This document shows, in pieces, positions 27,269 to 47,050 of a stretch of DNA of 64,000 bases. The DNA is from an uncultured Mycoplasmatota bacterium (GTDB taxonomy: Bacteria; Bacillota_I; Bacilli_A; RF39; UBA660). Under the pieces are notes generated by a model. It made no database searches and had not been told where the DNA came from. It saw only the letters and a list, made by a program, of their open reading frames with translations. The first letter of the stretch is position 1. Each line of letters starts with the position of its first letter. The DNA lies in contig CANSRH010000009.1 of assembly GCA_947649365.1 (NCBI GenBank), positions 1,417-65,416 of the forward strand, read 5' to 3'. A program made the position numbers and the translations under genes.

Positions 27269-27700
27269 GTGATATATATGCTAATCAATTATACGCAAAA
27301 AGAACTCGAATTATTAGCAAGAATAATGCGAGCCGAAGCACTTGCTGAAGGAAACTTAGGTATGCTTATGGTAGGAAACGTAGTAGTAAATCGAAGTATT
27401 GCCAATTGTTTAACTTTTAAAAATATAAGGAATATAACTGATGCAGTCTACCAAAAAAATCAATTTGCAGGAACGCAAGGTTCTTTATTTCAAGCCTCTC
27501 CAACAGCACTTGAAAAAGATTTAGCACTAAGAGCTTTAAGAGGAGAATACTATTATCCTGCAACACACGCTTTATGGTTTTATGCACCAGCCAAAAATAC
27601 TTCCTGTACAAAAACATGGTATGACCAACAATTAGCAGGGAGTTACAAAAATCATTGTTTCTACAGACCTGACCCAGGAGAATGCCAAGAATTATATTAA
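27269..27700 (+). CDS. spore cortex-lytic / cell wall hydrolase, SleB/CwlJ (Hydrolase_2) family
   Basis: LLARIMRAEA...VGNVVVNR...QFAGT pattern of the family. Confidence 0.85.
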   Translation: MIYMLINYTQKELELLARIMRAEALAEGNLGMLMVGNVVVNRSIANCLTFKNIRNITDAVYQKNQFAGTQGSLFQASPTALEKDLALRALRGEYYYPATHALWFYAPAKNTSCTKTWYDQQLAGSYKNHCFYRPDPGECQELY

Positions 27701-27755: not shown

Positions 27756-28350
27756 TTATGGAATTAACAATTGTTGCCCTATAGACAAATTACTTGTTGC
27801 TAAATTATTTAAACTTTGTAAAGCACTAACCGTTGTATTATTATCTCTAGCTATGCTATATAAAGTATCGCCTTTTTTTACTGTATAAGTTTTATAATTT
27901 GATGTTGAATTTGGCACTATAAGACGTTGACCAATACTTAATAAATTACTTGATAAATTATTTAAACGTTTTAATTCATCAACGGTAGTATTGTATTGAC
28001 TTGCTATTTTATATAAACTATCTCCACTTTTCACAATATAATAATTAGTATCTGTCGGGCTTGTGCTACCACTAATTTTTAATACTTGACCAATGGATAG
28101 ATTATTAGAAGTAAGATTGTTTAATTTTTTCAACTCATCCACGCTAAGATTAAATTCACGTGCAATCCCATACAAAGTATCTCCAGATTTTACAACATAT
28201 GTATCACCTGTAAATTCATTAGACCCTGTATTTTCTTTCAATTGCAAAACTTGACCAATAGACAATGAGTTAGAAGTCAAATTATTGATACGTTTTAGCT
28301 CATCAACAGACAACCCATTATTCTTAGCAATACTCCATAATGTATCTCCA
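27756..28350 (-). CDS. 3' segment of split cwlC-like N-acetylmuramoyl-L-alanine amidase (four LysM repeats)
   Basis: Repeats of Y.VK.GDTL..IA.......L..LN.L....L..GQ.L. The frame is open upstream to the element-1 junction (KKVSGDTLWSIAKNNG...), so it has no start of its own. Confidence 0.85.
28341..28350. repeat. 10-bp junction repeat TGTATCTCCA (element 1, left)
   Basis: Identical to 35838..35847. Lies in the codons GGA GAT ACA (G-D-T) of a LysM repeat. Confidence 0.9.
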
Positions 28351-28360
28351 GATACTTTTT

Positions 28361-29911
28361 TTATGTAACATTTTTAAATGTAAATAGAATATCTATCGTT
28401 TTGTCTTGATAAATATAAATCTTTTCTACCAAATTGATTATTAATTCTCTAGTTAAATTTTCTAAGGATAAAAATTCATTTATATAGTTTTCTATTTTTT
28501 TACTATCTTGTCTTTGATCATTTTTTTGTTCATTTTTAAGATGATCAATATTTGATTTATTCTTTTCCATTTCTTGTTTTAGATTTTCACTTATTCTTAT
28601 GTATTGTTCTTCTTCAATAATTCCTTTCAACATATTTATATAATTTTTATCTAAAGTTTCAGTTATTTTGTTATTTGCTATTTCTAAAGTTTCAATTTGT
28701 TTTTTTATTTTTATTGTATTGTCTTCAAACTCGATATCACCAATAGAATCTTTTATTTTATTCTTATCTAAATATTTCTTACATACATCTTTAATGTTAT
28801 CTAAAATAACACTTTCTAATACTTCGTAATTATTTGTATGAGTTGTACAAACATGATATTTTGAGTATGTCCTATAATAATCACAACTCGTATAACTCCT
28901 ACCAGTTTTATTTTGATATCTAATAGTTATACGATGTTTGCAATCTCCACAATATAAGAGTCCATCTAATAAATAAAATCTTTTCTTTTCTGGTCTTTTA
29001 ACATTTTTAGGTAAAAGTGTTTGAACATAATGAAAAGTATCTCTATCTATAATTGCTTCATGGGTGTTTTCAACGATAATATAATCTTTTGGATTATTCT
29101 TAACTGTCTTTTTAAGTTTATAATTAATCTTTTTAGTTTTACCTTGTACCGAATCTCCAACATATATCCTATTTGTAAGAATTGTTTTAATAGTTGTATC
29201 AACCCATACTCCATACTCTTGTGATATACACTTTGTATTCCATACATAATTATAATAAGACGCTGGTGTTTTAATTTTTCTTTTGGTAAGTTCTTGTGCT
29301 ACAAAGTGATATGTATTACCTTTAAGCGCTAAATCAAAAATTAGTCTAACAGTTTTTGCTTGTTCTTCATTGATAACTAAATGATTTTTATTATTAGGAT
29401 TTTTCATATATCCAAAAGGACATCTTCCCGATACATAAAGTCCATCTTTCATTCTTGAATGGAGACTTGTCTTCACTTTCTTAGAAATATCTTTAGCATA
29501 CATATCATTCATTATAGCTTTAAAAGGCGCTATATCATTATTAGTAGTATCTATGAAGGTATCAATACCATCATTAATTGCAATATACCTTATATTTTTA
29601 TTTGGAAAGTACTTTTCAATTAGCTCACCAGTTCCAATATAATCTCTGCCTAGTCTTGACATATCTTTTGTAATAATCATATTAATTTTACCAATTTCAA
29701 CATCTCTAATCATTCTTTTAAATGCTGGTCTTTCAAAATTAGTTCCAGTAAACCCATCATCTACATATTCATCTACTATTTTATAATTATTTTCATTAAC
29801 ATATTGATTTAATAAACTTCTTTGACTAACAATACTATCTGATTCAATATTTCCATCCTCTCTTGACAATCTTATATAGATTCCTACTCTAAAACTACTA
29901 TTTCCTATCAT
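28361..29911 (-). CDS. large serine recombinase
   Basis: VGIYIRLSRED catalytic-Ser motif, a resolvase domain, a recombinase domain, a Cys-rich zinc-ribbon (CGDC...C...C) and a coiled-coil tail. Confidence 0.92.
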   Translation of the reverse strand: MIGNSSFRVGIYIRLSREDGNIESDSIVSQRSLLNQYVNENNYKIVDEYVDDGFTGTNFERPAFKRMIRDVEIGKINMIITKDMSRLGRDYIGTGELIEKYFPNKNIRYIAINDGIDTFIDTTNNDIAPFKAIMNDMYAKDISKKVKTSLHSRMKDGLYVSGRCPFGYMKNPNNKNHLVINEEQAKTVRLIFDLALKGNTYHFVAQELTKRKIKTPASYYNYVWNTKCISQEYGVWVDTTIKTILTNRIYVGDSVQGKTKKINYKLKKTVKNNPKDYIIVENTHEAIIDRDTFHYVQTLLPKNVKRPEKKRFYLLDGLLYCGDCKHRITIRYQNKTGRSYTSCDYYRTYSKYHVCTTHTNNYEVLESVILDNIKDVCKKYLDKNKIKDSIGDIEFEDNTIKIKKQIETLEIANNKITETLDKNYINMLKGIIEEEQYIRISENLKQEMEKNKSNIDHLKNEQKNDQRQDSKKIENYINEFLSLENLTRELIINLVEKIYIYQDKTIDILFTFKNVT

Positions 29912-30102
29912 TAATTACTACTCCCTTCATTTTGGGAATAATGCTTGGATGGAAACTCCTTTTTTAATAGGTTGCAAGTCGTATTTACTCTTCTTTCTAG
30001 TTCAATTTTTAATACATTAGTTATTGTTTCATTTAAAGATTTTCCATTTTCTTTAAAATTCAAATTAACTTTGTATTTAACCATAGAGTTTAATACCTCC
30101 AA
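29911..30102 (-). CDS. small protein translationally coupled to the recombinase
   Basis: Its stop overlaps the recombinase ATG (TAATG). 63 aa. Confidence 0.5.
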   Translation of the reverse strand: MEVLNSMVKYKVNLNFKENGKSLNETITNVLKIELERRVNTTCNLLKKEFPSKHYSQNEGSSN

Positions 30103-30230
30103 TAAATTCTATGGTTTTAAATTTGTTTTAGTAATATTATTTAGTTGCATACAACAAACTCAACAATATGACTTATTACCATAAACCTCCATTAATTTTA
30201 AAATTATTATAATATCGTAAATAATTGTAT

Positions 30231-30275
30231 AAAAAAAACATCCATATAGTGATAATCACTAATTTATTATGGATG
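30231..30275 (-). terminator. putative terminator of the defence-like operon
   Basis: Stem CATCCATA/TATGGATG followed by T8 on the minus strand. The long 21-nt loop contains its own palindrome. Confidence 0.4.
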
Positions 30276-31233
30276 CTTTAATTTTTTTATATTTACCATT
30301 TCCTAAAAATTCAACATATCCTTCCTCTCTTAAAAATTGCAATTGTTGTCTTATTTTATCACGGATGTGATTATTTTCAGGATGATTTTTTTGCAACTCA
30401 TCTTCATATACATAAATATCTTCAAGTGAAAATTCATTTTTAGATATTTTTTTGATGATATTTTTTATGTCATTCTTCCACCCATTACTTTTTTGAATAA
30501 AAATTATTCTCTCAGATATTATTTTATATAAATCTTCGCTAGATAACTGATCAATAAGAATTTTCCCACTTAATCTATATAAATATGTTTTTAACATTCC
30601 AAATTGCTCACGTGATAATTTTATATCGTTATCTTCTTCATATTTTTTAACTGCTTTAATAATATTTTTAAAAACATCCTTATTATTAGCAAAAACACAA
30701 GACAATAAAGGAAATATCTTACCATTGATATCATTGTTACAAATATATTTAGTCAGCTCATAGGGATCATCTAATTCTTCATCATAAGTAAATCTTGCAT
30801 ACCACCACAATCTAGATAATCCATTTAGAAAAGGTGCCTTCGTACTATTCCAAAAGAAATAATTATTTAAAATATGACTATTTAAATCATCTTTATTTTT
30901 AGGTACTGACCATCTTTTTTGCATGTAATCCCAAAATATTGTATGAGCCATACCAGCCCATAGTCTTTCATCGCTTGCTTGAGAATCTGTCAAAAATTTT
31001 AAATTTTCATACATTATAACCATATTGTCGTAATCATCTTTTACGCCATTTTCAGTTTTTAATGAAAAATCGTTAACTTCAGCTATATTAAATGGTAAAA
31101 ATAAATTATGTTTAATATATTTCTTATCTATCCATGTACTATCTTTCTCATAATAAAATTTTGAATTAATACGCAAATCACTTTTTTTAAGCAAATCTAC
31201 TGAATTTTCTTTTAAATAAAATATTTGCATCAT
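30259..31233 (-). CDS. hypothetical 324-aa protein with C-terminal winged-helix-like tail
   Basis: The ATG overlaps the upstream stop (ATGA). The C-terminus reads NHIRDKIRQQLQFLREEGYVEFLGNGKYKK. Confidence 0.65.
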   Translation of the reverse strand: MMQIFYLKENSVDLLKKSDLRINSKFYYEKDSTWIDKKYIKHNLFLPFNIAEVNDFSLKTENGVKDDYDNMVIMYENLKFLTDSQASDERLWAGMAHTIFWDYMQKRWSVPKNKDDLNSHILNNYFFWNSTKAPFLNGLSRLWWYARFTYDEELDDPYELTKYICNNDINGKIFPLLSCVFANNKDVFKNIIKAVKKYEEDNDIKLSREQFGMLKTYLYRLSGKILIDQLSSEDLYKIISERIIFIQKSNGWKNDIKNIIKKISKNEFSLEDIYVYEDELQKNHPENNHIRDKIRQQLQFLREEGYVEFLGNGKYKKIKASIIN

Positions 31234-32114
31234 TTACCACCACTTTCATCAATATGATCTCTTATCCACTCTAATCCTGATGACAAAGGGAATTCTAATA
31301 ACTTTTGAGCAATATCTATAGATCCTGCACGTTCAACTAAACTTGGTAAAAATTTTGCATCATAAATTTTTTCTATCTTCTTTTTAAATACTCTAAACCA
31401 TTTGGAAGTTTCATAGGAATAGAAATTATTATCCTCTTTACACTCACTTGTAACCATATCTAAAACATAAACAATAGTAGGAATAATAATCATAGAATTA
31501 GCTACATCTAAAAAATGTTTTGCATATTTATTATAAATTATGTAATCTTCTTTATTCAAAATAATATATATTATATCTCCACTAAAATCTATTTTCATCC
31601 CTTCATCCTCGTCATCCTTCATTCTAACTTTTATAACAGATGAAAGTTTAGTGAATTCATGGATATCTTTTTCTATAAATACGTTTTCTTTTGAACCAAT
31701 AGCAAGTATACTTCCTTTTTGCAAATTGAACTTTGTATCTCCGTAGTCTTTATTAAAATTTTCACAATGATAATCCACTATATCTTCCAAAAGAATGATA
31801 TATGACGAAAGCTCAATTCTATTATTAACATCTTTATTATTTAAAACTATTTCATTATTTCCATAATTTAAATTATAAATTTCTCTAAATTTAGTAGAAG
31901 AACAATATATTTTTACTATAGCTTGAGCTTTACCAGTATTTATTAATTTTTTTAAATCACAATCATCTATATTAAATATATAATTAATTATTGAGTTTTT
32001 TTTCTTTTTCAATAAAGTTTTTGTTGTTTCAGAAGTGTAACTGACATTTATAAAATCATCAGTATTATTATCCAATACAGGATAAGCAAATAACTTATTT
32101 TGGTTCATTGCCAT
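31230..32114 (-). CDS. hypothetical ~295-aa protein
   Basis: The likely start is MAMNQNKLFAYPVL at 32114, overlapping the ATPase gene end. The track ORF extends to 32180. Confidence 0.6.
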   Translation of the reverse strand: MAMNQNKLFAYPVLDNNTDDFINVSYTSETTKTLLKKKKNSIINYIFNIDDCDLKKLINTGKAQAIVKIYCSSTKFREIYNLNYGNNEIVLNNKDVNNRIELSSYIILLEDIVDYHCENFNKDYGDTKFNLQKGSILAIGSKENVFIEKDIHEFTKLSSVIKVRMKDDEDEGMKIDFSGDIIYIILNKEDYIIYNKYAKHFLDVANSMIIIPTIVYVLDMVTSECKEDNNFYSYETSKWFRVFKKKIEKIYDAKFLPSLVERAGSIDIAQKLLEFPLSSGLEWIRDHIDESGGK

Positions 32115-34008
32115 ATAAAGCGACCTCCATAGTCCAATTTTCATCACTATCAAGCTCATAGGAAATTGTATAAATTTCATTAGCTTTTACATTTTTAATA
32201 ATTATATAATTATCACTATATTCATAATCAATAGCATTTGTATTATCATTATTTTTTATCACTAGAACACTAGTTAAATCAGCTTTTTCTTTATATCCTT
32301 CACCACTTATATTCAAATCTATTTTTATTATATCTTCGTCTTCATTTGAAGATAATATTATATTTCTATTTATCATTCTTATCTTATTTGGAATAATTCT
32401 TCTCTTAATTTGTGAATACTTTTCCTTTTGACGAGGATTTGGATTTGGATCAGGTGATGGAGTAGGATTTGGTTTTGGTTTTTTATTTTTTATAATATTG
32501 CCTTCTGGATCTAACTCGATATCATCCTCACCATCATCAGATTTTTTAGTTGGATTTTTCTTTTGTATCAGTGGAGTGTCTTGAATTTCTATCTTTGATA
32601 CATTATCATTAGCTAAAGTTTCTAAATTTTCATCATTATACGAATCAAAAATATATTCATCTGGTAAAAGTTCCCCAATTCCCTCAGCATCCATTTCTTC
32701 TTTTATTTCTGTTGTCAAATATTCTCTTATCGATTTCTTTACAAAATTTGTTAATTGGTCAATTTTATTTTGTGCGTCTTCTGGATTTGAGCTTCTCTTG
32801 GCTGACCATTTGTTATGTGTGGCATTTTCTAATTTTCTAAAATAATCATTAATCTCCATCCCAGTCATTTCCAGAATACCATGGTAACATCCCAATTTCG
32901 GTAAATATTTAATATCTAAAATTTTCATCCCTGTTGATCTTATAGCAGCAACAGTATTAAGAGAAGAAAAGTTTTCTTTGCTATCATCTACTCTCAATTT
33001 TAAAATCAAATCATTTTCGCTAAAGAATGTATAGGGTATTTCTATAACATCATTCTTGTAATTATTTAATATTTCATAATAATATGCAGTTGCATTATTT
33101 AAGTATTTAGAGATAGATTCATTTTTAATATATTCTTCTACATTAGAAAAGTTTAAAATATATTCATCATGACATATGCTTATTTTTAATTCATTTTTAA
33201 ACAGTGCTAAAAAGAAATTATCTATGATTGACGCAATTATTTGTTTTTTCCATTCTTCAGTTTCTTCCTTAAAGCCAATTATATAAATATCAGTTCCATA
33301 TTCTGTTCGTGGATAATTCTTTTCTAAATTTAATAGTTTTGGTATTCTAAATAATTCACCATCATTCTCATAATATCCTTCTCCAATGGCTCTATTACCA
33401 TCTTTTAAATCGAATCCCGATAATCTTGATATTCCACAATAGGCCTTTAATTCATCCTTTGCATATGTACTGTAAAAAACTGTATATAAAGACGAACACA
33501 CAAATGATGCGAATTTCCCCTTGCCCTTGCTACCTCCAGAACCTTCTGGTTTATCTGAAACACCTGCATTCTTTGTTAAATTACACCATGGAGATGATTT
33601 TGTTTTATTGGATCCTAATAAACCAGTAGTATTATAGTCTGCGATACGTAAACATCTAATATTATCTTTTTTTAATACCCCTAGTCCGTTTTCATAAAAC
33701 TTTGGTACTTCTTTATCATGTTCATAAAAAGAATTATTAAAATCATATTCATTTTTAAAAACCTCAACAAAATCTTCATATCCAGGGATGTCAGTATTCT
33801 TAATCCAAAATTCATCAAACGTTACCTTTATTGTTTTACTACTACTATCATTATATTCTGTTATAAATTTCGTATCTAAAGAATTTTGACAAATCTCTTT
33901 CGCTAAAGAAATAATAGGATTATCTTTAAATTCTTCACCTATATTATTAAAACCTTGTATACTTATTCCAGACGCACTGGGGAAATTCCATTTTCCATCT
34001 TCTTGCAT
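32095..34008 (-). CDS. GHKL (Bergerat-fold, HSP90/MutL/MORC-like) ATPase-domain protein
   Basis: N-box-like EICQNSLD, RIADYNTTG and G-rich lid GSGGSKGKGKFASF. A P/N/D-rich linker (PKPNPTPSPDPNPNP) precedes a small C-terminal domain. Confidence 0.65.
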   Translation of the reverse strand: MQEDGKWNFPSASGISIQGFNNIGEEFKDNPIISLAKEICQNSLDTKFITEYNDSSSKTIKVTFDEFWIKNTDIPGYEDFVEVFKNEYDFNNSFYEHDKEVPKFYENGLGVLKKDNIRCLRIADYNTTGLLGSNKTKSSPWCNLTKNAGVSDKPEGSGGSKGKGKFASFVCSSLYTVFYSTYAKDELKAYCGISRLSGFDLKDGNRAIGEGYYENDGELFRIPKLLNLEKNYPRTEYGTDIYIIGFKEETEEWKKQIIASIIDNFFLALFKNELKISICHDEYILNFSNVEEYIKNESISKYLNNATAYYYEILNNYKNDVIEIPYTFFSENDLILKLRVDDSKENFSSLNTVAAIRSTGMKILDIKYLPKLGCYHGILEMTGMEINDYFRKLENATHNKWSAKRSSNPEDAQNKIDQLTNFVKKSIREYLTTEIKEEMDAEGIGELLPDEYIFDSYNDENLETLANDNVSKIEIQDTPLIQKKNPTKKSDDGEDDIELDPEGNIIKNKKPKPNPTPSPDPNPNPRQKEKYSQIKRRIIPNKIRMINRNIILSSNEDEDIIKIDLNISGEGYKEKADLTSVLVIKNNDNTNAIDYEYSDNYIIIKNVKANEIYTISYELDSDENWTMEVALYGNEPK

Positions 34009-34009
34009 A

Positions 34010-34237
34010 TTAATTACCTCTCAAACTAAATTTATTATCCTTTTTTTCAAATTTTATTTTTGTTGATTTTAATTCACTTTCAATTGCACTAAATATCATT
34101 TTTACTTGTTGATTAGTATACTTATAATTGTTTGTATTTGCACAGTTACCTAAAAGTCTTAATGTTTGCAAAATCGTGTTTGTTCGATTTTCAGCTATTT
34201 TCAAAAACCTTTCTTCTTTTTTTTTATCATTATCCAT
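34010..34237 (-). CDS. small 75-aa helical protein
   Basis: Start MDNDKKKEERF with a GAGGTG Shine-Dalgarno. The track's longer N-terminus covers a consensus promoter and is unlikely to be coding. Confidence 0.55.
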   Translation of the reverse strand: MDNDKKKEERFLKIAENRTNTILQTLRLLGNCANTNNYKYTNQQVKMIFSAIESELKSTKIKFEKKDNKFSLRGN

Positions 34238-34259
34238 AAAAGCACCTCGCTTACTACAT

Positions 34260-34287
34260 ATTATACATATATAAGAAAACATGTCAA
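34260..34287 (-). promoter_or_regulatory. sigma-A-type promoter (TTGACA-16-TATAAT)
   Basis: Exact -35 and -10 hexamers on the minus strand, about 20 nt upstream of the Shine-Dalgarno of the 75-aa gene. Confidence 0.55.
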
Positions 34288-34344
34288 CTATATTTTCAAA
34301 ATGTAGTATTGTTTTTTGATATATAGTACAAAAAAAGATAATCA

Positions 34345-35502
34345 TTATGTATTATTTTGATTATCTTCTATTTTGTAATTTGTTATTAATAGATGTTCTA
34401 CGCCTTTTGCATTTCTATTCATAAAACTAACTAAATACTTTTTTTCAAATATTTCAATATTAAATCCTTTATCTTTATATAAATTTAAAATAAAGTCTGT
34501 ATTTTTTATAATTAACATAAATTTTGCTTTTGTTTTAGAAAGATAATTAGCTAGTCTAATTTGATCATCTTTATTAAATTTATTTTTAGAATAGGTAGAA
34601 AATTCTGTATCATACGGTGGGTCTAAAAAAACAAAGTCGTCTTCTTTAAGTTTTACTTTATCACAAAAATCTTCAAAGTCCATATTATAAATCTCTGTCT
34701 TTTCCATATACTTTCTTAATGTACTTGATTCAATATATTCAATTTTTTTTAAAAAATCTTTTCTATTATAGCTGATTCCTCCATATGGCACATTAAATTT
34801 ACCTTGCGAATTGTATCTAAACATAGATGAGTAACAATATTCTCTAATAAAATAAAATATGGCAGTAGCAAATTTACTTGATAAATTTAATTCTTCCTTA
34901 TAATTATATAAATATCTAAAATGAACATAAAAGGCGCTTTTTAATGAACACTCAATATTTTGTAATATATCTGTTTCATTCATGGTACCTTTTTTGCATT
35001 CAATAATATACATTCTTTTTATTTTGTCATACAATTTTTTTTGAATTTCATGAATAAAATTTTCAATATTTATATTAAAATTATTTGTTAAAACACCATT
35101 AAATTCTTTTGAATGCTTTATTACAAACTCACATATTATATTAGTATATTCTATTTTAATTTGTTTAGCATCACCATTCAAAGAATCATTGCAATAGTTT
35201 TTATATAAATTTAATAATTCTTCAGAATTATTTTCAACCACTTTTTTTAACAAAGTCCAATTATGATATAAATCGGTAACCTTCTTAAAAAATTCTTCAT
35301 CACCATCTTTGATACACTCATATAAATGTATAAGTTCTTCACATCTATCATTTATTATTGCTTCTTTAAAACTTACATTAAAATATACTGCTCCACCACC
35401 AACAAAAGGTTCAATATATCTATTATATTTTTGTGGTAAATTTGATAAAATATATGAAAGCTCTTTTTCTTTTCCACCTGCCCATTTTATAAATGTTTTC
35501 AT
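34345..35502 (-). CDS. D12-class (Dam-like) N6-adenine DNA methyltransferase
   Basis: FIKWAGGKEKEL, FVGGGAV (SAM binding) and FLDPPY (catalytic DPPY). Confidence 0.88.
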   Translation of the reverse strand: MKTFIKWAGGKEKELSYILSNLPQKYNRYIEPFVGGGAVYFNVSFKEAIINDRCEELIHLYECIKDGDEEFFKKVTDLYHNWTLLKKVVENNSEELLNLYKNYCNDSLNGDAKQIKIEYTNIICEFVIKHSKEFNGVLTNNFNINIENFIHEIQKKLYDKIKRMYIIECKKGTMNETDILQNIECSLKSAFYVHFRYLYNYKEELNLSSKFATAIFYFIREYCYSSMFRYNSQGKFNVPYGGISYNRKDFLKKIEYIESSTLRKYMEKTEIYNMDFEDFCDKVKLKEDDFVFLDPPYDTEFSTYSKNKFNKDDQIRLANYLSKTKAKFMLIIKNTDFILNLYKDKGFNIEIFEKKYLVSFMNRNAKGVEHLLITNYKIEDNQNNT

Positions 35503-35807
35503 ATCAAATCTACCTCGATTCTCTATTTAGATTTTATCATAAAAAAAGACTATATAAAATACTTTATGTAATTAATTACTTTGATTTTTTAAAATGTAAA
35601 TTTTTGTATTTTTAAATTATTCCACTTTTAATAAACAAGTAATATAATTAATTTCTAAATCCTTATCGAAAGTTAATATTACTTTAGGAGTAGGATTTTT
35701 TTCTTATAATGAATTAAATTCTTTTTCAAGTCCCTAATAATTTCGAACGAATAGAGATACTTAATAGTATATTAAGCCATATCTATTATCTACAACAAAG
35801 TCAACTT

Positions 35808-36437
35808 TTACTTATACTCATTATTCCCCATAAATATTGTATCTCCACTTTTCACAATATATGTTCCTTCTTTAATCACAGGTTTATAAGGAACTCCTAT
35901 GTATTGTGCTAAAGATTTAACCACTGCTTCTGCTAAATCTTGCCAATTATTTTTTAGTTGACTTACGTCATCCCCTGTACTATCAGCAAAACCATATTCT
36001 ACAATAATGGATTCATTATTTGGCGTTTCTCTTAAAATATAATAATAATCTAAATCTGGATTGCTTGGTAAACGTCTTTGATAATATTTACGAACATTTT
36101 GTCCAGCTTTACTTAAATTATCACTTATGATACTTGATAAACGATCACTATTACGTAAGGAATAAATGACTTCCGCACCATCCCCACCTCCTGCATTTAT
36201 GTGATTAGAAACAACTATTACATCACTACTAGGCCCATAAAAACTCTGTACTCTTTCAGGTCTAATATCTGGTCCAAGTGTTTCATCACCAGTTCTAGAC
36301 ATACGATTGTCTATTCCCAAATCATTTAACCGTTTATTCATATATTGACTTATTTTTAAAGTATAATCTTTCTCTGTAATTCCATTCGCTATTGTGCCGG
36401 GGTCATTCCCTCCATGGCTGGCACCTGTTATACCCAA
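35808..36437 (-). CDS. middle segment of split cwlC-like amidase (Amidase_3 catalytic domain)
   Basis: SHGGNDPG...EKDYTL...SNHINAGGG...E.GF. It lacks the native N-terminus. Its end runs out of a LysM repeat (YIVKSGDT) into element-derived codons. Confidence 0.88.
   Translation of the reverse strand: MGITGASHGGNDPGTIANGITEKDYTLKISQYMNKRLNDLGIDNRMSRTGDETLGPDIRPERVQSFYGPSSDVIVVSNHINAGGGDGAEVIYSLRNSDRLSSIISDNLSKAGQNVRKYYQRRLPSNPDLDYYYILRETPNNESIIVEYGFADSTGDDVSQLKNNWQDLAEAVVKSLAQYIGVPYKPVIKEGTYIVKSGDTIFMGNNEYK
35838..35847. repeat. 10-bp junction repeat TGTATCTCCA (element 1, right)
   Basis: Identical to 28341..28350. Confidence 0.9.
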
Positions 36438-36472: not shown

Positions 36473-38077
36473 TTATAAATCAAGATTCCACTCAATCTTA
36501 ATTTCTCTTGTCTTGGTATCTTTATCTAATGCACCAACATATATTTTTTCTATAAACTCATCCACAATTATTCTAGTTAGTTTATCAATTTTCTTATATT
36601 TTTTTAGTATGCTTTCTATATCTTTTGAATTTTCTTTTCTAGTTTCAGTTTCATTAAGTTGTTTTTCTATATCTTCAAGTCTTGTTTGATAAGATTCAAC
36701 ATCTTTTGTATATTCTTCTCGAAGCATTGAAAAGTCTTCTTCTGATATAATACCTTTCATCTTATCCATATAAAGATTTTTAAAGTACAGCTTGCATTCA
36801 TTTAACTTCTTTTCAAGATTAGCTTTCTCTTTATTTAAATTAGTAATTAATGTATCTTGTCTATTTTGTCTTTCTAATGTTTCATTAAATTCTTCTTTTA
36901 GTAATTTTTGATTACATTTTTTTAATAAACCATTTATAGCATCAAGGACATATTGTTCTATAATATCATATCTTATTGATTTATTATTATCACAAGTATG
37001 ATATTTTTTATTGCCTTTGCATTGTAGATATGCTCTTTTTTCCATAACTCCACCAGCACATTTAATATTACATTGATTTTTCATAAATATTCTTCCACAT
37101 TCAGCACAATAAACTTTACTACTTAAAATGTGTACTTTTCCATCTTTTGCTGGTCTATGATGATTTTTTAATCTTCTCTGAACTAAATACCATGTTTCAC
37201 TATCAATAATAGGTTCATGGGCATTTTCAGTAACACTCCATTCTGATTTAGGAACACTTTTAGATTTATGATTTTTATAACTAATGTTTGTTCTTTTTCC
37301 TTGCACTAAATTACCCATATAGGTTTCGTTTCGTAACATTGTTGCGATTGTGTCTGGTGTCCATATTCCAGTAGTATCATAATCAAAGTTGCAACATACG
37401 AAATTACTTCCAATAGATTTTTTATAAAGAGATGGGCATAATATTTTTCTTTCATTTAAACTTGCACATATTTTATGATAGCCAAATCCATTTTTATATT
37501 TTTCAAATATCTCTCTAACAATAGGTGCAACATTTTCATCAATAATAAGTTTATGTTTATTATTAGGATCTTTCATATATCCATAAGGAGCAAAACTCCC
37601 CATAAATAAACCATCTTCTCTTTTATTTTTGAGTGACTTTTTAACATTGTTAGATAAATCTTCTAGATACCATTCATTAACAAGTCCATTGATTTGTCTA
37701 GATTTTTTATTTGCTTCATTATTAGTATCAGCATTATCAACTATACTTACAAATCTAACTCCCCATTCAATAAACTTATTATGTAAATATCTTTCTATTA
37801 CTTCCATATCTCTTGAAAATCTACTTTGCGTTTTACATAGTACAATATTTATTTTTCCATTTTCACAATCATTAATTAACCTATTGAAATCTGGTCTTTC
37901 AACCCCTGCTCCAGAATAATCATCATCTGAATAAATATCTACAACTTCCCAATCTTGATCCAACGCATATTTTAAAAGCATACTTTTTTGATTAGCGATT
38001 GACTCACTATCATCATTCTTATTTTTTTTGAATCTATCTTCATCAGATAGTCTGCAATATACACCTACCTTTTCCAT
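36473..38077 (-). CDS. large serine recombinase
   Basis: VGVYCRLSDED catalytic-Ser motif, a recombinase domain, a zinc-ribbon (CAECG...C) and a coiled-coil tail. Confidence 0.92.
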   Translation of the reverse strand: MEKVGVYCRLSDEDRFKKNKNDDSESIANQKSMLLKYALDQDWEVVDIYSDDDYSGAGVERPDFNRLINDCENGKINIVLCKTQSRFSRDMEVIERYLHNKFIEWGVRFVSIVDNADTNNEANKKSRQINGLVNEWYLEDLSNNVKKSLKNKREDGLFMGSFAPYGYMKDPNNKHKLIIDENVAPIVREIFEKYKNGFGYHKICASLNERKILCPSLYKKSIGSNFVCCNFDYDTTGIWTPDTIATMLRNETYMGNLVQGKRTNISYKNHKSKSVPKSEWSVTENAHEPIIDSETWYLVQRRLKNHHRPAKDGKVHILSSKVYCAECGRIFMKNQCNIKCAGGVMEKRAYLQCKGNKKYHTCDNNKSIRYDIIEQYVLDAINGLLKKCNQKLLKEEFNETLERQNRQDTLITNLNKEKANLEKKLNECKLYFKNLYMDKMKGIISEEDFSMLREEYTKDVESYQTRLEDIEKQLNETETRKENSKDIESILKKYKKIDKLTRIIVDEFIEKIYVGALDKDTKTREIKIEWNLDL

Positions 38078-45940: not shown

Positions 45941-47050
45941 TTAACTCGCCGCTTTAGACAAATGAATTTCAGTAGTTTTCAACTCTTCACCACGATAATA
46001 ACTAATTACTACTGTATCTCCAACATTATGTTTATACAATTGATATTTAAGATAAGCAAGACTCTTAATCTCTGCATCACCAAGTTTCGTAATGATATCA
46101 CCACTCTTTAACCCAGCTTCCTCTGCAGGACTTCCCTTCTCCACACTATCTACATAAACACCATTAGAAACAGGTGCATCCACACGAATAATCAAATCAG
46201 ACAAATTATACATCGAAACTCCCAAATAAGGTCGTTTTATAGTTTCACCTTTTTCAAAACGTTCTGCATATTCTAAAGCATCCTCAATAGGAATTGCAAA
46301 CCCCATTCCTTCAATCGAACTTCCAGATAAACCACTACTTCCAAGCTTCATAGAAGTAATACCAATCACCTGTCCATTCGAATTCGAAAGAGGTCCTCCA
46401 CTATTTCCCGAATTAATAGCTGCATCCGTCTGCATAACACTCATCACCCAATCAGAAACAGAATTTCCAGTCAAACTTACTTCAACCATTCTATCCTTTC
46501 CTGACAGAATTCCACGAGTCACAGTCCAAGAATAAGCACTACTATCAATCGGAGCACCAACAGCAAAAACGGTATCTCCAATTCTTGAATCTTTGCTAGA
46601 GCCAATTTCAGCAACATGAATCACTTTATCGCTAGAAACGGTTAAAACTGCAATATCTGCATATTTATCCCCGCCAAGAATACTTGCCTCAACAGAACTT
46701 CCATTAGTAAACACCACGCGAACACTATCGCCACTTTCAATAACATGATTATTTGTAAGAACATAACCTTTTCCATTTTCATTCTTATAAACAAAACCAG
46801 TCCCCGTCGCATAGAGTTTCTCTTTTTTATAAGTTTCAATCGTAACAACAGAATCATAAACTTTTTCAACTGCATCCGCTATCCCATTTTCTGTCACTGT
46901 TACATCCTTAATCGTTTTTGTCACATTCTCTGTCACTGTCATAGGATAATACTTAACCAAAGCAAGCATTAAAAGAGCTCCCAAGAAAAAAGCAACTAAC
47001 AAAATCACACCATTTCTTAACTTCAAATTCATATCATTCTCTTTTTGCAT
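45941..47050 (-). CDS. HtrA/DegP-family serine protease with PDZ domain
   Basis: TM anchor, GTGFVY...TNNHV, GNSGGPL catalytic Ser and a C-terminal PDZ. Confidence 0.9.
   Translation of the reverse strand: MQKENDMNLKLRNGVILLVAFFLGALLMLALVKYYPMTVTENVTKTIKDVTVTENGIADAVEKVYDSVVTIETYKKEKLYATGTGFVYKNENGKGYVLTNNHVIESGDSVRVVFTNGSSVEASILGGDKYADIAVLTVSSDKVIHVAEIGSSKDSRIGDTVFAVGAPIDSSAYSWTVTRGILSGKDRMVEVSLTGNSVSDWVMSVMQTDAAINSGNSGGPLSNSNGQVIGITSMKLGSSGLSGSSIEGMGFAIPIEDALEYAERFEKGETIKRPYLGVSMYNLSDLIIRVDAPVSNGVYVDSVEKGSPAEEAGLKSGDIITKLGDAEIKSLAYLKYQLYKHNVGDTVVISYYRGEELKTTEIHLSKAAS

What the first reader, a model, noticed from the sequence alone, without database searches (positions are those of the whole stretch)
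30259..35502. Cargo of element 1 is a Dam-like methylase, small protein, GHKL ATPase and two unknown proteins: a candidate undescribed defence system
Apart from the recombinase pair, the 7.5-kb element is filled by five co-directional genes. The first is a D12-class N6-adenine methyltransferase (KWAGGK, FVGGGAV, DPPY). A 107-nt gap follows that contains an exact TTGACA-16-TATAAT promoter. Next is a 75-aa basic helical protein. Then comes a 637-aa protein with Bergerat-fold ATPase motifs (EICQNSLD, RIADYNTTG, GSGGSKGKGKFASF), a Pro/Asn/Asp linker and a small C-terminal domain. The last two proteins are about 295 aa and 324 aa, joined by overlapping stop/start codons (ATGA at 31230..31233, plus an overlap at 32095..32114). 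The last protein ends in NHIRDKIRQQLQFLREEGYVEFLGNGKYKK. From memory, that segment resembles the winged-helix DNA-binding tails of some restriction enzymes such as the DpnI C-terminal domain, but I have not verified this. I cannot find a nuclease, helicase, HNH or PLD motif. A modification methylase, a separately promoted ATPase-containing module and mobile-element carriage together look like an R-M-like or MORC-like immunity system. The gene content does not match BREX, DISARM, Dnd/Ssp, Mza or classical type I-IV systems as I know them.
Basis: partly seen in the sequence, partly recalled or inferred. Interest (0 to 1): 0.85.

Follow-up and report, generated by a model that had tools for sequence, protein, structure and literature searches.

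The report
Methylase-linked GHKL ATPase defence cassette
A 5.4-kb mobile cassette combines a Dam-type DNA methylase with an uncharacterised three-protein ATPase module (listed in PADLOC as candidate phage-defence system PDC-M33), one subunit of which carries a reader domain for the mark that methylase probably writes, so it looks like an untested restriction-modification-like immune system with no recognisable nuclease.

Summary
Five co-directional minus-strand genes are present: a Dam-family MTase, a 75-aa protein, a 637-aa GHKL ATPase, a 294-aa protein and a 324-aa protein. The exact TTGACA-16-TATAAT promoter is also there. The remembered DpnI resemblance is real (Pfam DpnI_C 1.2e-27; 4 of 5 methyl-pocket residues identical).

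The system is not wholly undescribed. The three large proteins match PADLOC candidate PDC-M33 A/B/C (1.5e-145, 1.1e-66, 9e-67). The last protein is Pfam DUF6339. The ATPase has the ExxxH signature and neighbourhood of Iyer and Aravind's paraMORC2 family. I found no paper on its function.

New points:
- The five genes move as one unit: a single 5,393-bp block, 90% identical, lies in an unrelated context elsewhere.
- DNA methylases sit beside the A-B-C core in 43 of 80 species, 31 of 44 within 1.5 kb. One C5-methylase type co-diverges with the ATPase (r=0.96).
- The DpnI-type reader on DUF6339 was found only next to one D12 methylase subfamily (9 of 9 loci).

Best reading: an R-M-like module of writer, reader and GHKL engine in which methylated GATC marks self. 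The effector is unknown and the mechanism is inferred. I class it as a new variant of a known candidate kind.

The parts
30221..35601 (-). Five-gene cassette as a discrete transferable block (MTase, small protein, A, B, C, with both promoters)
   Evidence: One colinear blastn block, 90.5% identity over 5,393 bp, to L090 6508-11892. The flanks there are unrelated: ABC transporters, an AP endonuclease and a transposase, with no recombinase and no amidase.
34345..35502 (-). Dam-family (D12 class) N6-adenine DNA methyltransferase, 385 aa, with an insertion of about 110 aa (aa 84-197); probable GATC specificity
   Evidence: PF02086 2.5e-38; TIGR00571 181 bits (cut-off 114.85); PADLOC MTase_II 2.7e-64. 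The best PDB matches are DpnM 2.3e-30 and E. coli Dam 4e-22. EcoDam K9, Y119, R124, P134 and Y138 are conserved; N120 is S and L122 is M (residue roles from PMC4417163).
35531..35558 (-). Promoter-like site upstream of the MTase (TTTATA-16-TAAAAT with TG before the -10), inside the conserved cassette block
   Evidence: Consensus scan only, 9 of 12 matches. It lies inside the 90% identical block.
34260..34287 (-). Sigma-70-type promoter TTGACA-16-TATAAT for the small-A-B-C operon
   Evidence: The only 12/12 match in 10.5 kb. TTGACA is invariant and the -10 is T(A/G)TAAT in the window and five relatives (L001, L002, L003, L083, L090).
34252..34308 (-). Inverted repeat bracketing that promoter (arms 34252-34271 and 34289-34308); candidate operator
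   Evidence: 20-nt arms, 80% complementary. The half-sites are ACTACAT/ATGTAGT in the window and L090, against ACTATAT/ATATAGT in L001, L002, L003 and L083. The DNA is AT-rich, so this is only suggestive.
34010..34237 (-). 75-aa basic helical protein; the first gene of the operon in most relatives
   Evidence: Homologue found by jackhmmer at 54 of 80 species loci, in most directly upstream of A. No family in Pfam, NCBIfam, PADLOC or PHROGs. In L012, L046 and L010 it precedes an inserted MTase (+REase) gene set, all co-directional with A-B-C.
32095..34008 (-). PDC-M33A: GHKL (Bergerat) ATPase plus S5/transducer domain (about aa 1-435), disordered Pro/Asn/Asp linker (436-528) and C-terminal beta-sandwich (540-637)
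   Evidence: PADLOC PDLC04582 1.5e-145 over aa 5-633. Invariant residues in 38 homologues: E38, N42, D45 (motif I), D124, G129 (motif II), G159-G164 (ATP lid), K362 (S5 lysine) and E394xxxH398. AF2 and Foldseek: Hsp90, Topo VI-B, GyrB.
31230..32114 (-). PDC-M33B: 294-aa protein of unknown fold, translationally coupled to A and C
   Evidence: PADLOC PDLC04583 1.1e-66. 2,593 cluster representatives at E<=1e-3; the best 150 listed are nearly all about 280-300 aa (three shorter, none longer), so none is a fusion. No PDB or Pfam relative even with a profile. No invariant acidic residue.
30499..31233 (-). PDC-M33C N-terminal part: DUF6339, an all-helical domain with invariant N70, E89, R90, W92, R107, W143, W144 and D228
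   Evidence: PF19866 1e-46; PADLOC PDLC04586 9e-67. AF2 pLDDT 92. No match in PDB or BFVD outside the winged helix. Invariants.
30280..30492 (-). PDC-M33C C-terminal DpnI-type winged helix (reader of fully methylated Gm6ATC in DpnI)
   Evidence: PF17726 1.2e-27; DpnI 4ESJ 8.8e-17, 71 aa without a gap. The DpnI pocket residues E228, K229, R231, Q232 and Q235 (EKIRQQLQ; PMC3424567) read DKIRQQLQ here.
28341..35847 (-). Carrier element 1 (7.5 kb), bounded by the 10-bp core TGGAGATACA and inserted in a LysM motif of an Amidase_3-LysM gene
   Evidence: Rejoining the halves gives YIVKSGDT|LWSIAKNNGLSVDEL.
28361..29911 (-). Large serine recombinase of element 1 (516 aa), preceded by an overlapping 63-aa ORF at 29911-30102
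   Evidence: PHROG 95 integrase 1.1e-104; ORFs.

Best explanation
The five genes form one mobile, methylation-linked immune cassette. It is R-M-like in logic and is built on the PDC-M33 / paraMORC-type three-protein core.

Shown:
1. The cassette is a discrete unit that includes the MTase.
2. The MTase is Dam-family and keeps five of the seven residues checked that EcoDam uses to read GATC (the other two are substituted).
3. A is a GHKL+S5 ATPase with all catalytic motifs.
4. C carries a DpnI-type winged helix with the m6A pocket residues.
5. Across the family, DNA MTases (C5 or D12) lie immediately next to A-B-C and co-diverge with it.

Inferred:
1. The MTase, expressed from its own promoter, marks host GATC sites.
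2. The small-A-B-C operon, driven by a consensus promoter flanked by a possible operator, makes an ATP-driven dimeric clamp (A) with two partner proteins (B and C).
3. C's winged helix reads fully methylated GATC as 'self' and keeps the ATPase complex off, or releases it.
4. DNA without the mark, such as incoming phage or plasmid DNA, stays engaged and is interfered with.

The effector step is unknown. No subunit has a recognisable nuclease. Interference could come from DNA entrapment or compaction by the GHKL clamp, from a novel catalytic site in DUF6339 (invariant D88/E89/R90/D228) or in B, or from a nuclease encoded elsewhere.
For: Unit: a single 5,393-bp block at 90.5% identity in an unrelated context.

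Core family: PADLOC PDC-M33 A/B/C. A, B and C (DUF6339) were found together in nearly all of 80 species loci: A 80, B 80, C 76.

ATPase: fold and invariant motifs.

MTase linkage:
- 43 of 80 loci have a C5 or D12 MTase nearby.
- 31 of 44 MTase genes lie within 1.5 kb of the module edge, and none lies beyond 4.5 kb in 408 kb surveyed.
- For the roughly 540-aa C5 MTase, identity between MTases tracks identity between A proteins with r=0.96 (Mantel p about 5e-4, 17 loci, two gene orders); no REase was evident in the four of these loci inspected.
- In L012, L046 and L010 the MTase sits inside the operon, between the small gene and A.

Writer and reader: the DpnI_C fusion occurs only where a D12 MTase of one subfamily (41-87% identity) is adjacent. 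This holds in 9 of 9 loci with enough flank, in two clades whose C proteins are only about 30% identical.

Specificity residues.

Defence context: GmrSD, Mrr, Thoeris TIR, AbiGI/GII, type I, II and IIL R-M genes, a prophage integrase-proximal locus and plasmids.

Precedent: paraMORC GHKL ATPases were predicted in R-M systems (PMC2292703), and a paraMORC3 protein, VcSduA, was validated as an ATPase-dependent defence (PMC12137116).

GATC is the most depleted 4-bp palindrome in the window (79 observed, 146 expected).
Against: - No phenotype data exist for any member, and 'defence' rests on context alone.
- No nuclease was found, so the restriction step is hypothetical.
- At least 35 of 86 loci show no C5 or D12 MTase in the DNA available (a crude motif screen for other amino-MTases flagged only L071), so the core can evidently exist without a linked MTase.
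- In about 13 loci the MTase comes with its own conventional REase (AlwI-like, FokI-like, HpaII, NOV_C, HNH). Part of the MTase adjacency may therefore be ordinary R-M systems parked next to, or inside, the operon.
- In the D12 group, MTase and A identities are only weakly correlated (r=0.32, p about 0.06).
- In L083 and L084 the MTase lies outside the recombinase element that carries small-A-B-C.
- A reader of the methylated state is an unusual way to build self-tolerance. Neither GATC specificity of the MTase nor Gm6ATC binding by this winged helix was measured.
Confidence: 0.45

Rival explanations
1. Two independent units lie side by side. One is an orphan or anti-restriction Dam MTase, possibly the remnant of a type II R-M. 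The other is an MTase-independent PDC-M33 system. In this reading C's winged helix targets Dam-methylated foreign DNA, as in type IV systems, or triggers abortive infection.
For: DpnI-type winged-helix fusions characterised so far are m6A-dependent type IV enzymes that usually lack a nearby MTase (PMC11037411). Many PDC-M33 loci have no MTase. MTases of this subfamily pair with conventional REases in L002, L006, L008 and L009, and with a weakly supported HNH protein in L081 and L082. D12 MTase and A identities are only weakly correlated.
Against: A reader of Gm6ATC beside a probable GATC MTase would target the host's own chromosome. The fusion is always next to this MTase subfamily (9 of 9 loci, two distant clades), which is the opposite of the conflict avoidance reported for winged-helix nucleases. 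The five genes transfer as one block. There is no nuclease domain on C.
Confidence: 0.2
2. A-B-C is an accessory engine for restriction systems rather than a system of its own. In this reading a paraMORC-type ATPase complex loops or remodels DNA for nucleases or helicases encoded next to it, or elsewhere in the genome. In this window the partner nuclease would lie outside the cassette.
For: Partners next to the core vary: type II REases, SNF2 helicases (L017, L070), an SFII helicase-HNH fusion (L066), Z1+ResIII (L074), Vsr, and an MmeI-like enzyme with a helicase and a GIY-YIG nuclease (L087). An R-M pair is embedded between the small gene and A. This is the model proposed by Iyer et al. 2008.
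Against: Many loci, including this window, L001, L003, L090 and the four inspected loci of the 17-locus C5-540 group, carry only an MTase plus small-A-B-C with no partner nuclease. The cassette moves without any nuclease.
Confidence: 0.2
3. The cassette does not act in defence. It would instead be an epigenetic or maintenance module of mobile elements: a Dam writer, an m6A reader and a MutL/Hsp90-like ATPase. Such a module might control element replication, excision, segregation or repair according to GATC methylation state.
For: The cassette is carried on integrative elements, plasmids and a prophage. GHKL ATPases and Dam act together in mismatch repair (established knowledge; discussed in PMC2292703). 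The fully versus hemi-methylated state reports replication status. No effector is evident.
Against: Neighbours are overwhelmingly restriction or abortive-infection genes, not replication or partition genes. The cassette also sits in a chromosomal context without element genes. The MTase type is interchangeable (C5 or D12), as in R-M-like systems. PADLOC lists the core as a defence candidate.
Confidence: 0.1

Closest known systems
PADLOC-DB v2 'phage defence candidate' PDC-M33 (A, B, C)
   Same: The 637-, 294- and 324-aa proteins match the three models almost end to end (1.5e-145, 1.1e-66, 9.1e-67), in the same order and orientation.
   Different: By its model names, PDC-M33 is a three-gene candidate. 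It has no published phenotype (no paper found). The window adds a Dam-family MTase, a conserved 75-aa first gene and a DpnI_C domain on C. The last matches a separate PADLOC model (mREase_II, 2.8e-22), not the M33C models.
paraMORC GHKL ATPases of R-M systems, especially paraMORC2 (Iyer, Abhiman and Aravind 2008, PMC2292703)
   Same: A GHKL N-terminal domain plus an S5-type domain. An invariant ExxxH at the C-terminal end of that domain (E394, H398). A mostly Gram-positive distribution. Neighbourhoods include C5 MTases, Vsr, SFII/SNF2 helicases, HNH and Z1.
   Different: No sequence of a named paraMORC2 member was available for comparison. The 2008 text does not describe the obligatory B and DUF6339 partners, the small protein or an m6A-reader fusion. 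A has no Pfam HATPase_c or HATPase_c_3 hit.
R.DpnI and the winged-helix-nuclease type IV enzymes (PMC3424567, PMC4117772, PMC11037411)
   Same: The C-terminal winged helix is homologous (8.8e-17, 71 aa without a gap) and keeps 4 of the 5 residues that line the methyl pockets.
   Different: There is no PD-(D/E)XK, HNH, GIY-YIG or PLD domain. The winged helix is fused to DUF6339 inside a GHKL operon. It sits next to a Dam-family MTase, whereas those enzymes avoid GATC methylases.
Shedu type I-D / VcSduA (paraMORC3: GHKL plus DUF4263 nuclease; PMC12137116)
   Same: A GHKL ATPase with a clamp-like middle domain in an experimentally validated anti-phage protein whose ATPase activity is required.
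   Different: VcSduA is a single polypeptide with a PD-(D/E)xK nuclease and no MTase. The window system has separate B and C partners, no recognisable nuclease and a linked MTase.
Gao Mza and MORC-containing R-M-like systems; BREX and DISARM as methylation-based non-classical systems
   Same: The logic is shared: a modification MTase together with an ATPase-containing multi-gene interference module carried on mobile DNA.
   Different: Apart from generic MTase models, PADLOC gave only one below-noise hit (a Cas10 model, E 0.011) and none to Mza, BREX or DISARM components. There is no Z1, PglZ, BrxC, DrmA or DrmB. A Z1-ResIII gene appears only as a neighbour in one relative (L074).

Membership tests
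PADLOC candidate system PDC-M33 | Proteins matching the PDC-M33A, B and C models, encoded adjacently | tested here: met
   1.5e-145 (aa 5-633 of 637), 1.1e-66 and 9.1e-67. The genes are contiguous and overlap.
PADLOC candidate system PDC-M33 | Anti-phage activity | not testable with these tools
   No paper mentions PDC-M33 or DUF6339.
GHKL (Bergerat-fold) ATPases | Motif I ExxxNxxD, motif II DxxxxG, a Gly-rich ATP lid, and the fold itself | tested here: met
   E38, N42, D45, D124, G129, G159, S160, G162 and G164 are invariant in 38 homologues. Foldseek matches Hsp90, TRAP1, Topo VI-B and GyrB at E 2.4e-9 to 1e-4.
GHKL (Bergerat-fold) ATPases | ATP hydrolysis and ATP-driven dimerisation | not testable with these tools
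   Inferred from the intact motifs and the invariant S5-domain lysine K362.
paraMORC2 (Iyer et al. 2008) | [quoted passage not shown] | tested here: met
   E394 and H398 are invariant (LENATHNKW). They lie at the end of the transducer-like domain in the model.
paraMORC2 (Iyer et al. 2008) | Neighbourhoods with DNA MTases, Vsr, SFII helicases and restriction-fold nucleases; mostly Gram-positive bacteria and cyanobacteria | tested here: met
   The loci are mostly Bacillota. No cyanobacteria were among the 80 best loci.
paraMORC2 (Iyer et al. 2008) | Sequence relationship to a named paraMORC2 member | not tested
   The member lists and alignments of that paper are not held as text.
MORC proper | HATPase_c_3-type GHKL domain and the GhXhhpXXRhl motif in S5 | tested here: not met
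   No Pfam family matched at E<=0.1. The motif is not among the conserved columns.
Dam family (D12 class) GATC methyltransferases | D12 fold with the FxGxG and DPPY motifs; a family model score above its cut-off | tested here: met
   TIGR00571 181 bits against 114.85; PF02086 2.5e-38; DpnM 2.3e-30.
Dam family (D12 class) GATC methyltransferases | GATC specificity (EcoDam K9, Y119, N120, L122, R124, P134, Y138) | tested here: inconclusive
   Five of seven residues are identical, including the key discriminator R124. N120 is S and L122 is M. The EcoDam equivalog model is far below its cut-off (91 bits against 441). A methylome is needed.
DpnI_C (Dam-replacing) winged helix, m6A reader | Domain homology and the methyl-pocket residues E228, K229, R231, Q232, Q235 | tested here: met
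   PF17726 1.2e-27; 4ESJ 8.8e-17; DKIRQQLQ against EKIRQQLQ; Foldseek to 4ESJ 5e-5.
DpnI_C (Dam-replacing) winged helix, m6A reader | Preferential binding of fully methylated Gm6ATC | not testable with these tools
   Inferred from residue conservation only.
Classical type II R-M | A cognate restriction endonuclease next to the MTase | tested here: not met
   No nuclease family or fold was found in the small protein, A, B or C. Relatives carry unrelated REases as insertions.
   The PD-(D/E)XK half of DpnI is absent: the alignment covers DpnI 187-257 only. A Dam-family MTase is adjacent in 9 of 9 loci.
Mza / BREX / DISARM / Dnd-Ssp | Signature components (Z1 with MutL-like ATPase; PglZ/BrxC; DrmA/B; DndA-E or SspA-D) | tested here: not met
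   The PADLOC scan returned PDC-M33 and generic MTase models plus one below-noise Cas10 hit (E 0.011), and no Mza, BREX, DISARM or Dnd/Ssp component.

The most novel reading that the evidence does not exclude
The cassette is a nuclease-free epigenetic immune system of writer, reader and engine. Dam marks self DNA. A DpnI-type winged helix on the DUF6339 subunit reads the mark. A MORC-like GHKL clamp, with B and C, entraps, compacts or silences DNA that lacks the mark. This would be a bacterial counterpart, and possible ancestor, of MORC-based silencing in eukaryotes. The same A-B-C engine would be re-coupled to C5 or D12 methylases in different lineages.
Probability: 0.15. Interest if true: 0.85.

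Novelty: new variant of a known kind. Interest (0 to 1): 0.62.

Why it matters
The A-B-C core is widespread. The ATPase has at least 1,559 clusters at 90% identity, and B has 2,593 representatives at 50% identity. It occurs in gut and oral Firmicutes, Veillonella and Fusobacteria, on dairy Lactococcus plasmids and in a prophage. Yet RefSeq annotates its proteins only as 'hypothetical' or 'DUF6339', and I found no paper on it.

This window gives the most interpretable version. It has a probable GATC writer and, in the same 5.4-kb unit, a reader domain whose structure and specificity are already known from DpnI. That yields a direct experimental test: compare Dam-methylated with unmethylated targets, and delete the MTase, the winged helix or the catalytic E38. 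It also reverses the rule seen for DpnI-type winged-helix proteins, which avoid GATC methylases.

If the system restricts DNA without a canonical nuclease, it would add a new mechanism to bacterial immunity. It would also bear on the proposed R-M origin of eukaryotic MORC ATPases. If instead it proves to be an ordinary helper of R-M systems, the finding still assigns a context to DUF6339 and to two unnamed protein families.

Tried and rejected
- Literature searches for 'PDC-M33' and 'DUF6339' returned no papers. The 'paraMORC' search gave only the 2008 analysis, an HEF_HK two-component-like family that is not this one, and VcSduA.
- PDB sequence searches found nothing meaningful for A (single sequence), for B (single sequence and profile) or for the DUF6339 profile.
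- A relaxed Pfam scan of 32 B homologues gave no family shared by more than one member.
- Foldseek of the high-confidence C model against PDB and BFVD matched only the winged helix. DUF6339 itself has no structural analogue in those libraries.
- PHROGs and NCBIfam gave nothing for the small protein, A, B or C.
- I looked for a PD-(D/E)xK-like signature in B (HIECxQT). I rejected it because the Glu is not conserved in the window's own clade and B has no invariant acidic residue.
- I suspected a DpnI-like winged helix in the 119-aa protein of L010 and in the N-terminus of the NOV_C proteins of L006 and L008. Neither BLASTP nor jackhmmer supports this.
- I guessed that the C-terminal extension of L043's DUF6339 protein was ParB-like. 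Pfam gives no support.
- I first read the MTase as a clade-specific add-on. I revised this after neighbour scans showed C5 MTases next to the core in many other lineages.

Full report
**1. What is there**

- MTase: 34345-35502, 385 aa.
- Small protein: 34010-34237, 75 aa.
- ATPase 'A': 32095-34008, 637 aa.
- 'B': 31230-32114, 294 aa. Homologues fix the start at MAMNQNK.
- 'C': 30259-31233, 324 aa.

A/B overlap by 20 nt and B/C overlap by ATGA. The exact TTGACA-16-TATAAT promoter at 34287..34260 is the only 12/12 match in 10.5 kb. Its -35 hexamer is invariant in five relatives. A weaker promoter-like site with an extended -10 lies upstream of the MTase at 35558..35531.

The carrier element is real. 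The 10-bp core TGGAGATACA occurs at 28341-28350 and 35838-35847, against 0.06 matches expected. It splits an Amidase_3-LysM gene inside a LysM motif. Joining the halves restores YIVKSGDT|LWSIAKNNGLSVDEL. A large serine recombinase sits at one end.

**2. Identity of the proteins**

*MTase.* It is Dam-family: TIGR00571 scores 181 bits against a cut-off of 114.85, and PF02086 gives 2.5e-38. The best solved relatives are DpnM and E. coli Dam. It keeps EcoDam K9, Y119, R124, P134 and Y138. N120 is replaced by S and L122 by M (residue roles from PMC4417163). From memory, T4 Dam has S and M at these two positions. GATC specificity is therefore likely but unproven.

*A.* It has no Pfam or NCBIfam family. 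Thirty-eight homologues share invariant Bergerat motifs: E38/N42/D45, D124/G129 and G159-G164. They also share a lysine in the second domain (K362) and E394xxxH398. The AF2 model (pLDDT 77.6) shows four parts:
- a GHKL domain;
- a transducer/S5-like domain;
- a disordered Pro/Asn/Asp linker (aa 436-528);
- a C-terminal beta-sandwich (aa 540-637).

Foldseek matches Hsp90, TRAP1, Topo VI-B and GyrB at E down to 2.4e-9.

*C.* It is Pfam DUF6339 (1e-46) followed by a genuine DpnI_C winged helix (1.2e-27). It aligns to DpnI 4ESJ at 8.8e-17 over 71 residues without a gap. The five DpnI residues within 5 A of the two m6A methyl groups form the motif EKIRQQLQ (PMC3424567). Here the motif reads DKIRQQLQ. 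The AF2 model of C is confident (pLDDT 92). Its all-helical DUF6339 part has no analogue in PDB or BFVD.

*B and the small protein.* Neither has a detectable relative of known function. B has no invariant acidic residue.

**3. It is already catalogued, but only as a candidate**

PADLOC-DB models PDC-M33A, B and C match A, B and C at 1.5e-145, 1.1e-66 and 9.1e-67. No paper in the library mentions PDC-M33 or DUF6339. RefSeq names the three proteins 'hypothetical', 'hypothetical' and 'DUF6339 family protein'.

Conceptually the ATPase fits the paraMORC radiation of Iyer, Abhiman and Aravind (PMC2292703). These are GHKL+S5 ATPases in R-M neighbourhoods. Their paraMORC2 family is defined by a conserved ExxxH at the end of S5 and occurs mainly in Gram-positive bacteria. 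A has exactly such an invariant motif. I could not compare it with a named member.

**4. Comparative genomics**

A scan of one genome per species found 315 loci, and I analysed the best 80.

*Core and small gene.* A, B and C occur together in essentially all 80 loci. The small gene was detected in 54 of 80, in most of them directly upstream of A.

*The D12 MTase and the DpnI_C fusion at first looked clade-specific.* I found them in 7 and 3 loci respectively.

*MTases are nevertheless a general neighbour.*
- Of 103 nearest neighbours, 23 are C5 MTases.
- In all, 43 of 80 loci hold a C5 or D12 MTase.
- Of 44 MTase genes, 31 lie within 1.5 kb of the module edge.
- None lies further than 4.5 kb away in 408 kb of flank surveyed.

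*Gene arrangements vary.*
- A C5 MTase of about 540 aa lies either convergent after C or co-directional before the small gene; no REase was evident in the four such loci I inspected. Pairwise identity between these MTases tracks that between their A proteins (r=0.96, Mantel p about 5e-4, 17 loci).
- R-M pairs are inserted between the small gene and A (a C5 MTase with a FokI-cleavage-domain protein in L012, L013 and L046) or downstream of C (HpaII).
- D12 MTases occur with AlwI-like, NOV_C or HNH partners.
- In other loci SNF2 or HNH helicases, Z1+ResIII and Vsr are adjacent.

*The core also occurs on other mobile DNA.*
- Lactococcus lactis dairy plasmids, next to an AlwI-family REase and AbiGI/GII.
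- Ligilactobacillus megaplasmids, inside an hsdS-hsdM ... MmeI-like-helicase-GIY-YIG array.
- Priestia plasmids, next to a Sau3AI-type R-M.
- A Clostridium innocuum prophage, beside the integrase.

**5. The window's variant**

Relatives about 90% identical carry the same five genes in a completely different context (L090-L092). The similarity is one colinear block, window 35601..30221, at 90.5% over 5,393 bp, with unrelated flanks. The MTase, both promoters and small-A-B-C therefore travel as one cassette.

The DpnI_C fusion to DUF6339 was found in two clades whose A and C proteins are only about 30% identical. The second clade (L081, L082) has weaker pocket conservation. In every locus with enough flank (9 of 9), a D12 MTase of one subfamily is adjacent (41-87% identity, sharing the same idiosyncratic motifs).

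This is the reverse of what is known for DpnI-type winged-helix proteins. Those are m6A-dependent nucleases that usually lack a nearby MTase (87% of cases had none within three genes) and rarely coexist with GATC methylation in the same genome (PMC11037411).

Two observations weaken a strict one-to-one coupling.
- In the D12 group, MTase and A identities are poorly correlated (r=0.32).
- In L083 and L084 the MTase lies just outside the recombinase element that carries small-A-B-C. That element is inserted at a different position of the same amidase gene.

**6. Mechanism**

*Shown.* The cassette is a single unit. The Dam-family writer retains the key GATC-contact residues. The GHKL+S5 ATPase has intact motifs. 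An m6A-type reader sits on the DUF6339 subunit. MTases are tightly linked to the core across the family. The context is typical of defence genes.

*Inferred.* The MTase marks host GATC sites. C reads fully methylated sites as self and thereby restrains or releases an ATP-driven A-B-C complex. Unmarked incoming DNA is acted upon.

*Unknown.* The effector step. Candidates are:
- clamp-mediated entrapment or compaction, as in MORC proteins;
- a new active site in DUF6339 (invariant D88/E89/R90/D228 and a cluster of invariant Trp/Tyr) or in B;
- a nuclease encoded elsewhere.

I give this reading 0.45. The rivals are:
- independent neighbours, with a type IV-like reader (0.2);
- an accessory engine for restriction systems (0.2);
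- a non-defence epigenetic or maintenance module (0.1).

GATC is the most depleted 4-bp palindrome in the window (79 observed, 146 expected). That fits long-term GATC-directed restriction pressure in this lineage, but it does not discriminate among the models.

**7. Verdict**

The cassette is a coherent, mobile, methylase-linked module of defence type. It is not undescribed at the level of its core, which corresponds to PADLOC PDC-M33, Pfam DUF6339 and the paraMORC concept.

What appears new is threefold:
- the five-gene writer-reader-GHKL variant;
- the evidence that MTases are integral partners of this family;
- the absence of any recognisable nuclease.

I class it as a new variant of a known (candidate) kind, with interest 0.62.

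Noticed in passing
window 27756-28350 and 35838-36437; L083 4499-4795 and 11833-12774: Element 1 interrupts an Amidase_3-LysM gene inside a LysM motif. A related serine-recombinase element carrying the same small-A-B-C cargo interrupts the orthologous gene at a different position (about aa 82) in L083 and L084. A SleB-like hydrolase gene lies next door (27269-27700; its L083 counterpart has Pfam Hydrolase_2). This resembles skin-type intervening elements that are excised from sporulation genes.
   Followed up: partly
window 36473-38077 and 46013-46022: A second large serine recombinase (534 aa) ends 36 bp upstream of the amidase start codon. A third copy of the core TGGAGATACA lies at 46013-46022 inside another ORF (45941-47050). 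That copy may simply encode the LysM motif SGDT, or it may mark a second element.
   Followed up: no
window 34252-34308; L001 9678-9704; L083 4940-4965: The consensus promoter of small-A-B-C is bracketed by an inverted repeat. Its half-sites differ in a matched way between relatives: ACTACAT/ATGTAGT in the window and L090, against ACTATAT/ATATAGT in L001, L002, L003 and L083. It may be an operator for tight control of the operon, as with controller proteins of R-M systems. AT-rich DNA gives many chance repeats.
   Followed up: partly
whole window: GATC is the most under-represented 4-bp palindrome: 79 observed against 146 expected from a Markov model, a ratio of 0.54. The ratio is 0.57 within the element.
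   Followed up: partly
L012 6859-13425, L013, L046 7040-13419; L010 8233-13483: In some relatives an MTase, with a FokI-cleavage-domain protein (L012, L013, L046) or a 119-aa protein (L010), is inserted between the small gene and A. All genes are co-directional and tightly packed. The small gene therefore heads a composite operon.
   Followed up: partly
L081 4792-6075, L082 8001-9284, L043 12734-13828, L055 12719-13741, L088 4922-5986: DUF6339 proteins carry variable C-terminal extensions. L081 and L082 appear to have two tandem winged-helix-like segments (the first judged by eye only), the second a weak DpnI_C match whose recognition helix lacks the RQxxQ residues. L055 has a weak HTH_6-like tail. 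L043 and the C. innocuum phage have unassigned extensions of about 100 aa.
   Followed up: partly
L044 7550-10345, L053 13461-16256, L012 13425-15832, L031 7327-9987: A large protein of 800-930 aa, whose only Pfam hits are short Sigma70_r4 or RNA_pol_A_CTD-like segments, lies directly next to the A-B-C core in several C5-MTase loci. Its start overlaps the end of C in L044. It may be a further component in those variants.
   Followed up: no
L083 12913-15724; L089 10718-14130: Sau3AI/MutH-family endonuclease genes with C5 MTases, that is GATC-type R-M systems, lie a few kb from the A-B-C core in two unrelated hosts.
   Followed up: no
window 29911-30102: A 63-aa ORF overlaps the start codon of the element's serine recombinase and has no family match. 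It may be a recombination directionality factor or a leader peptide.
   Followed up: no
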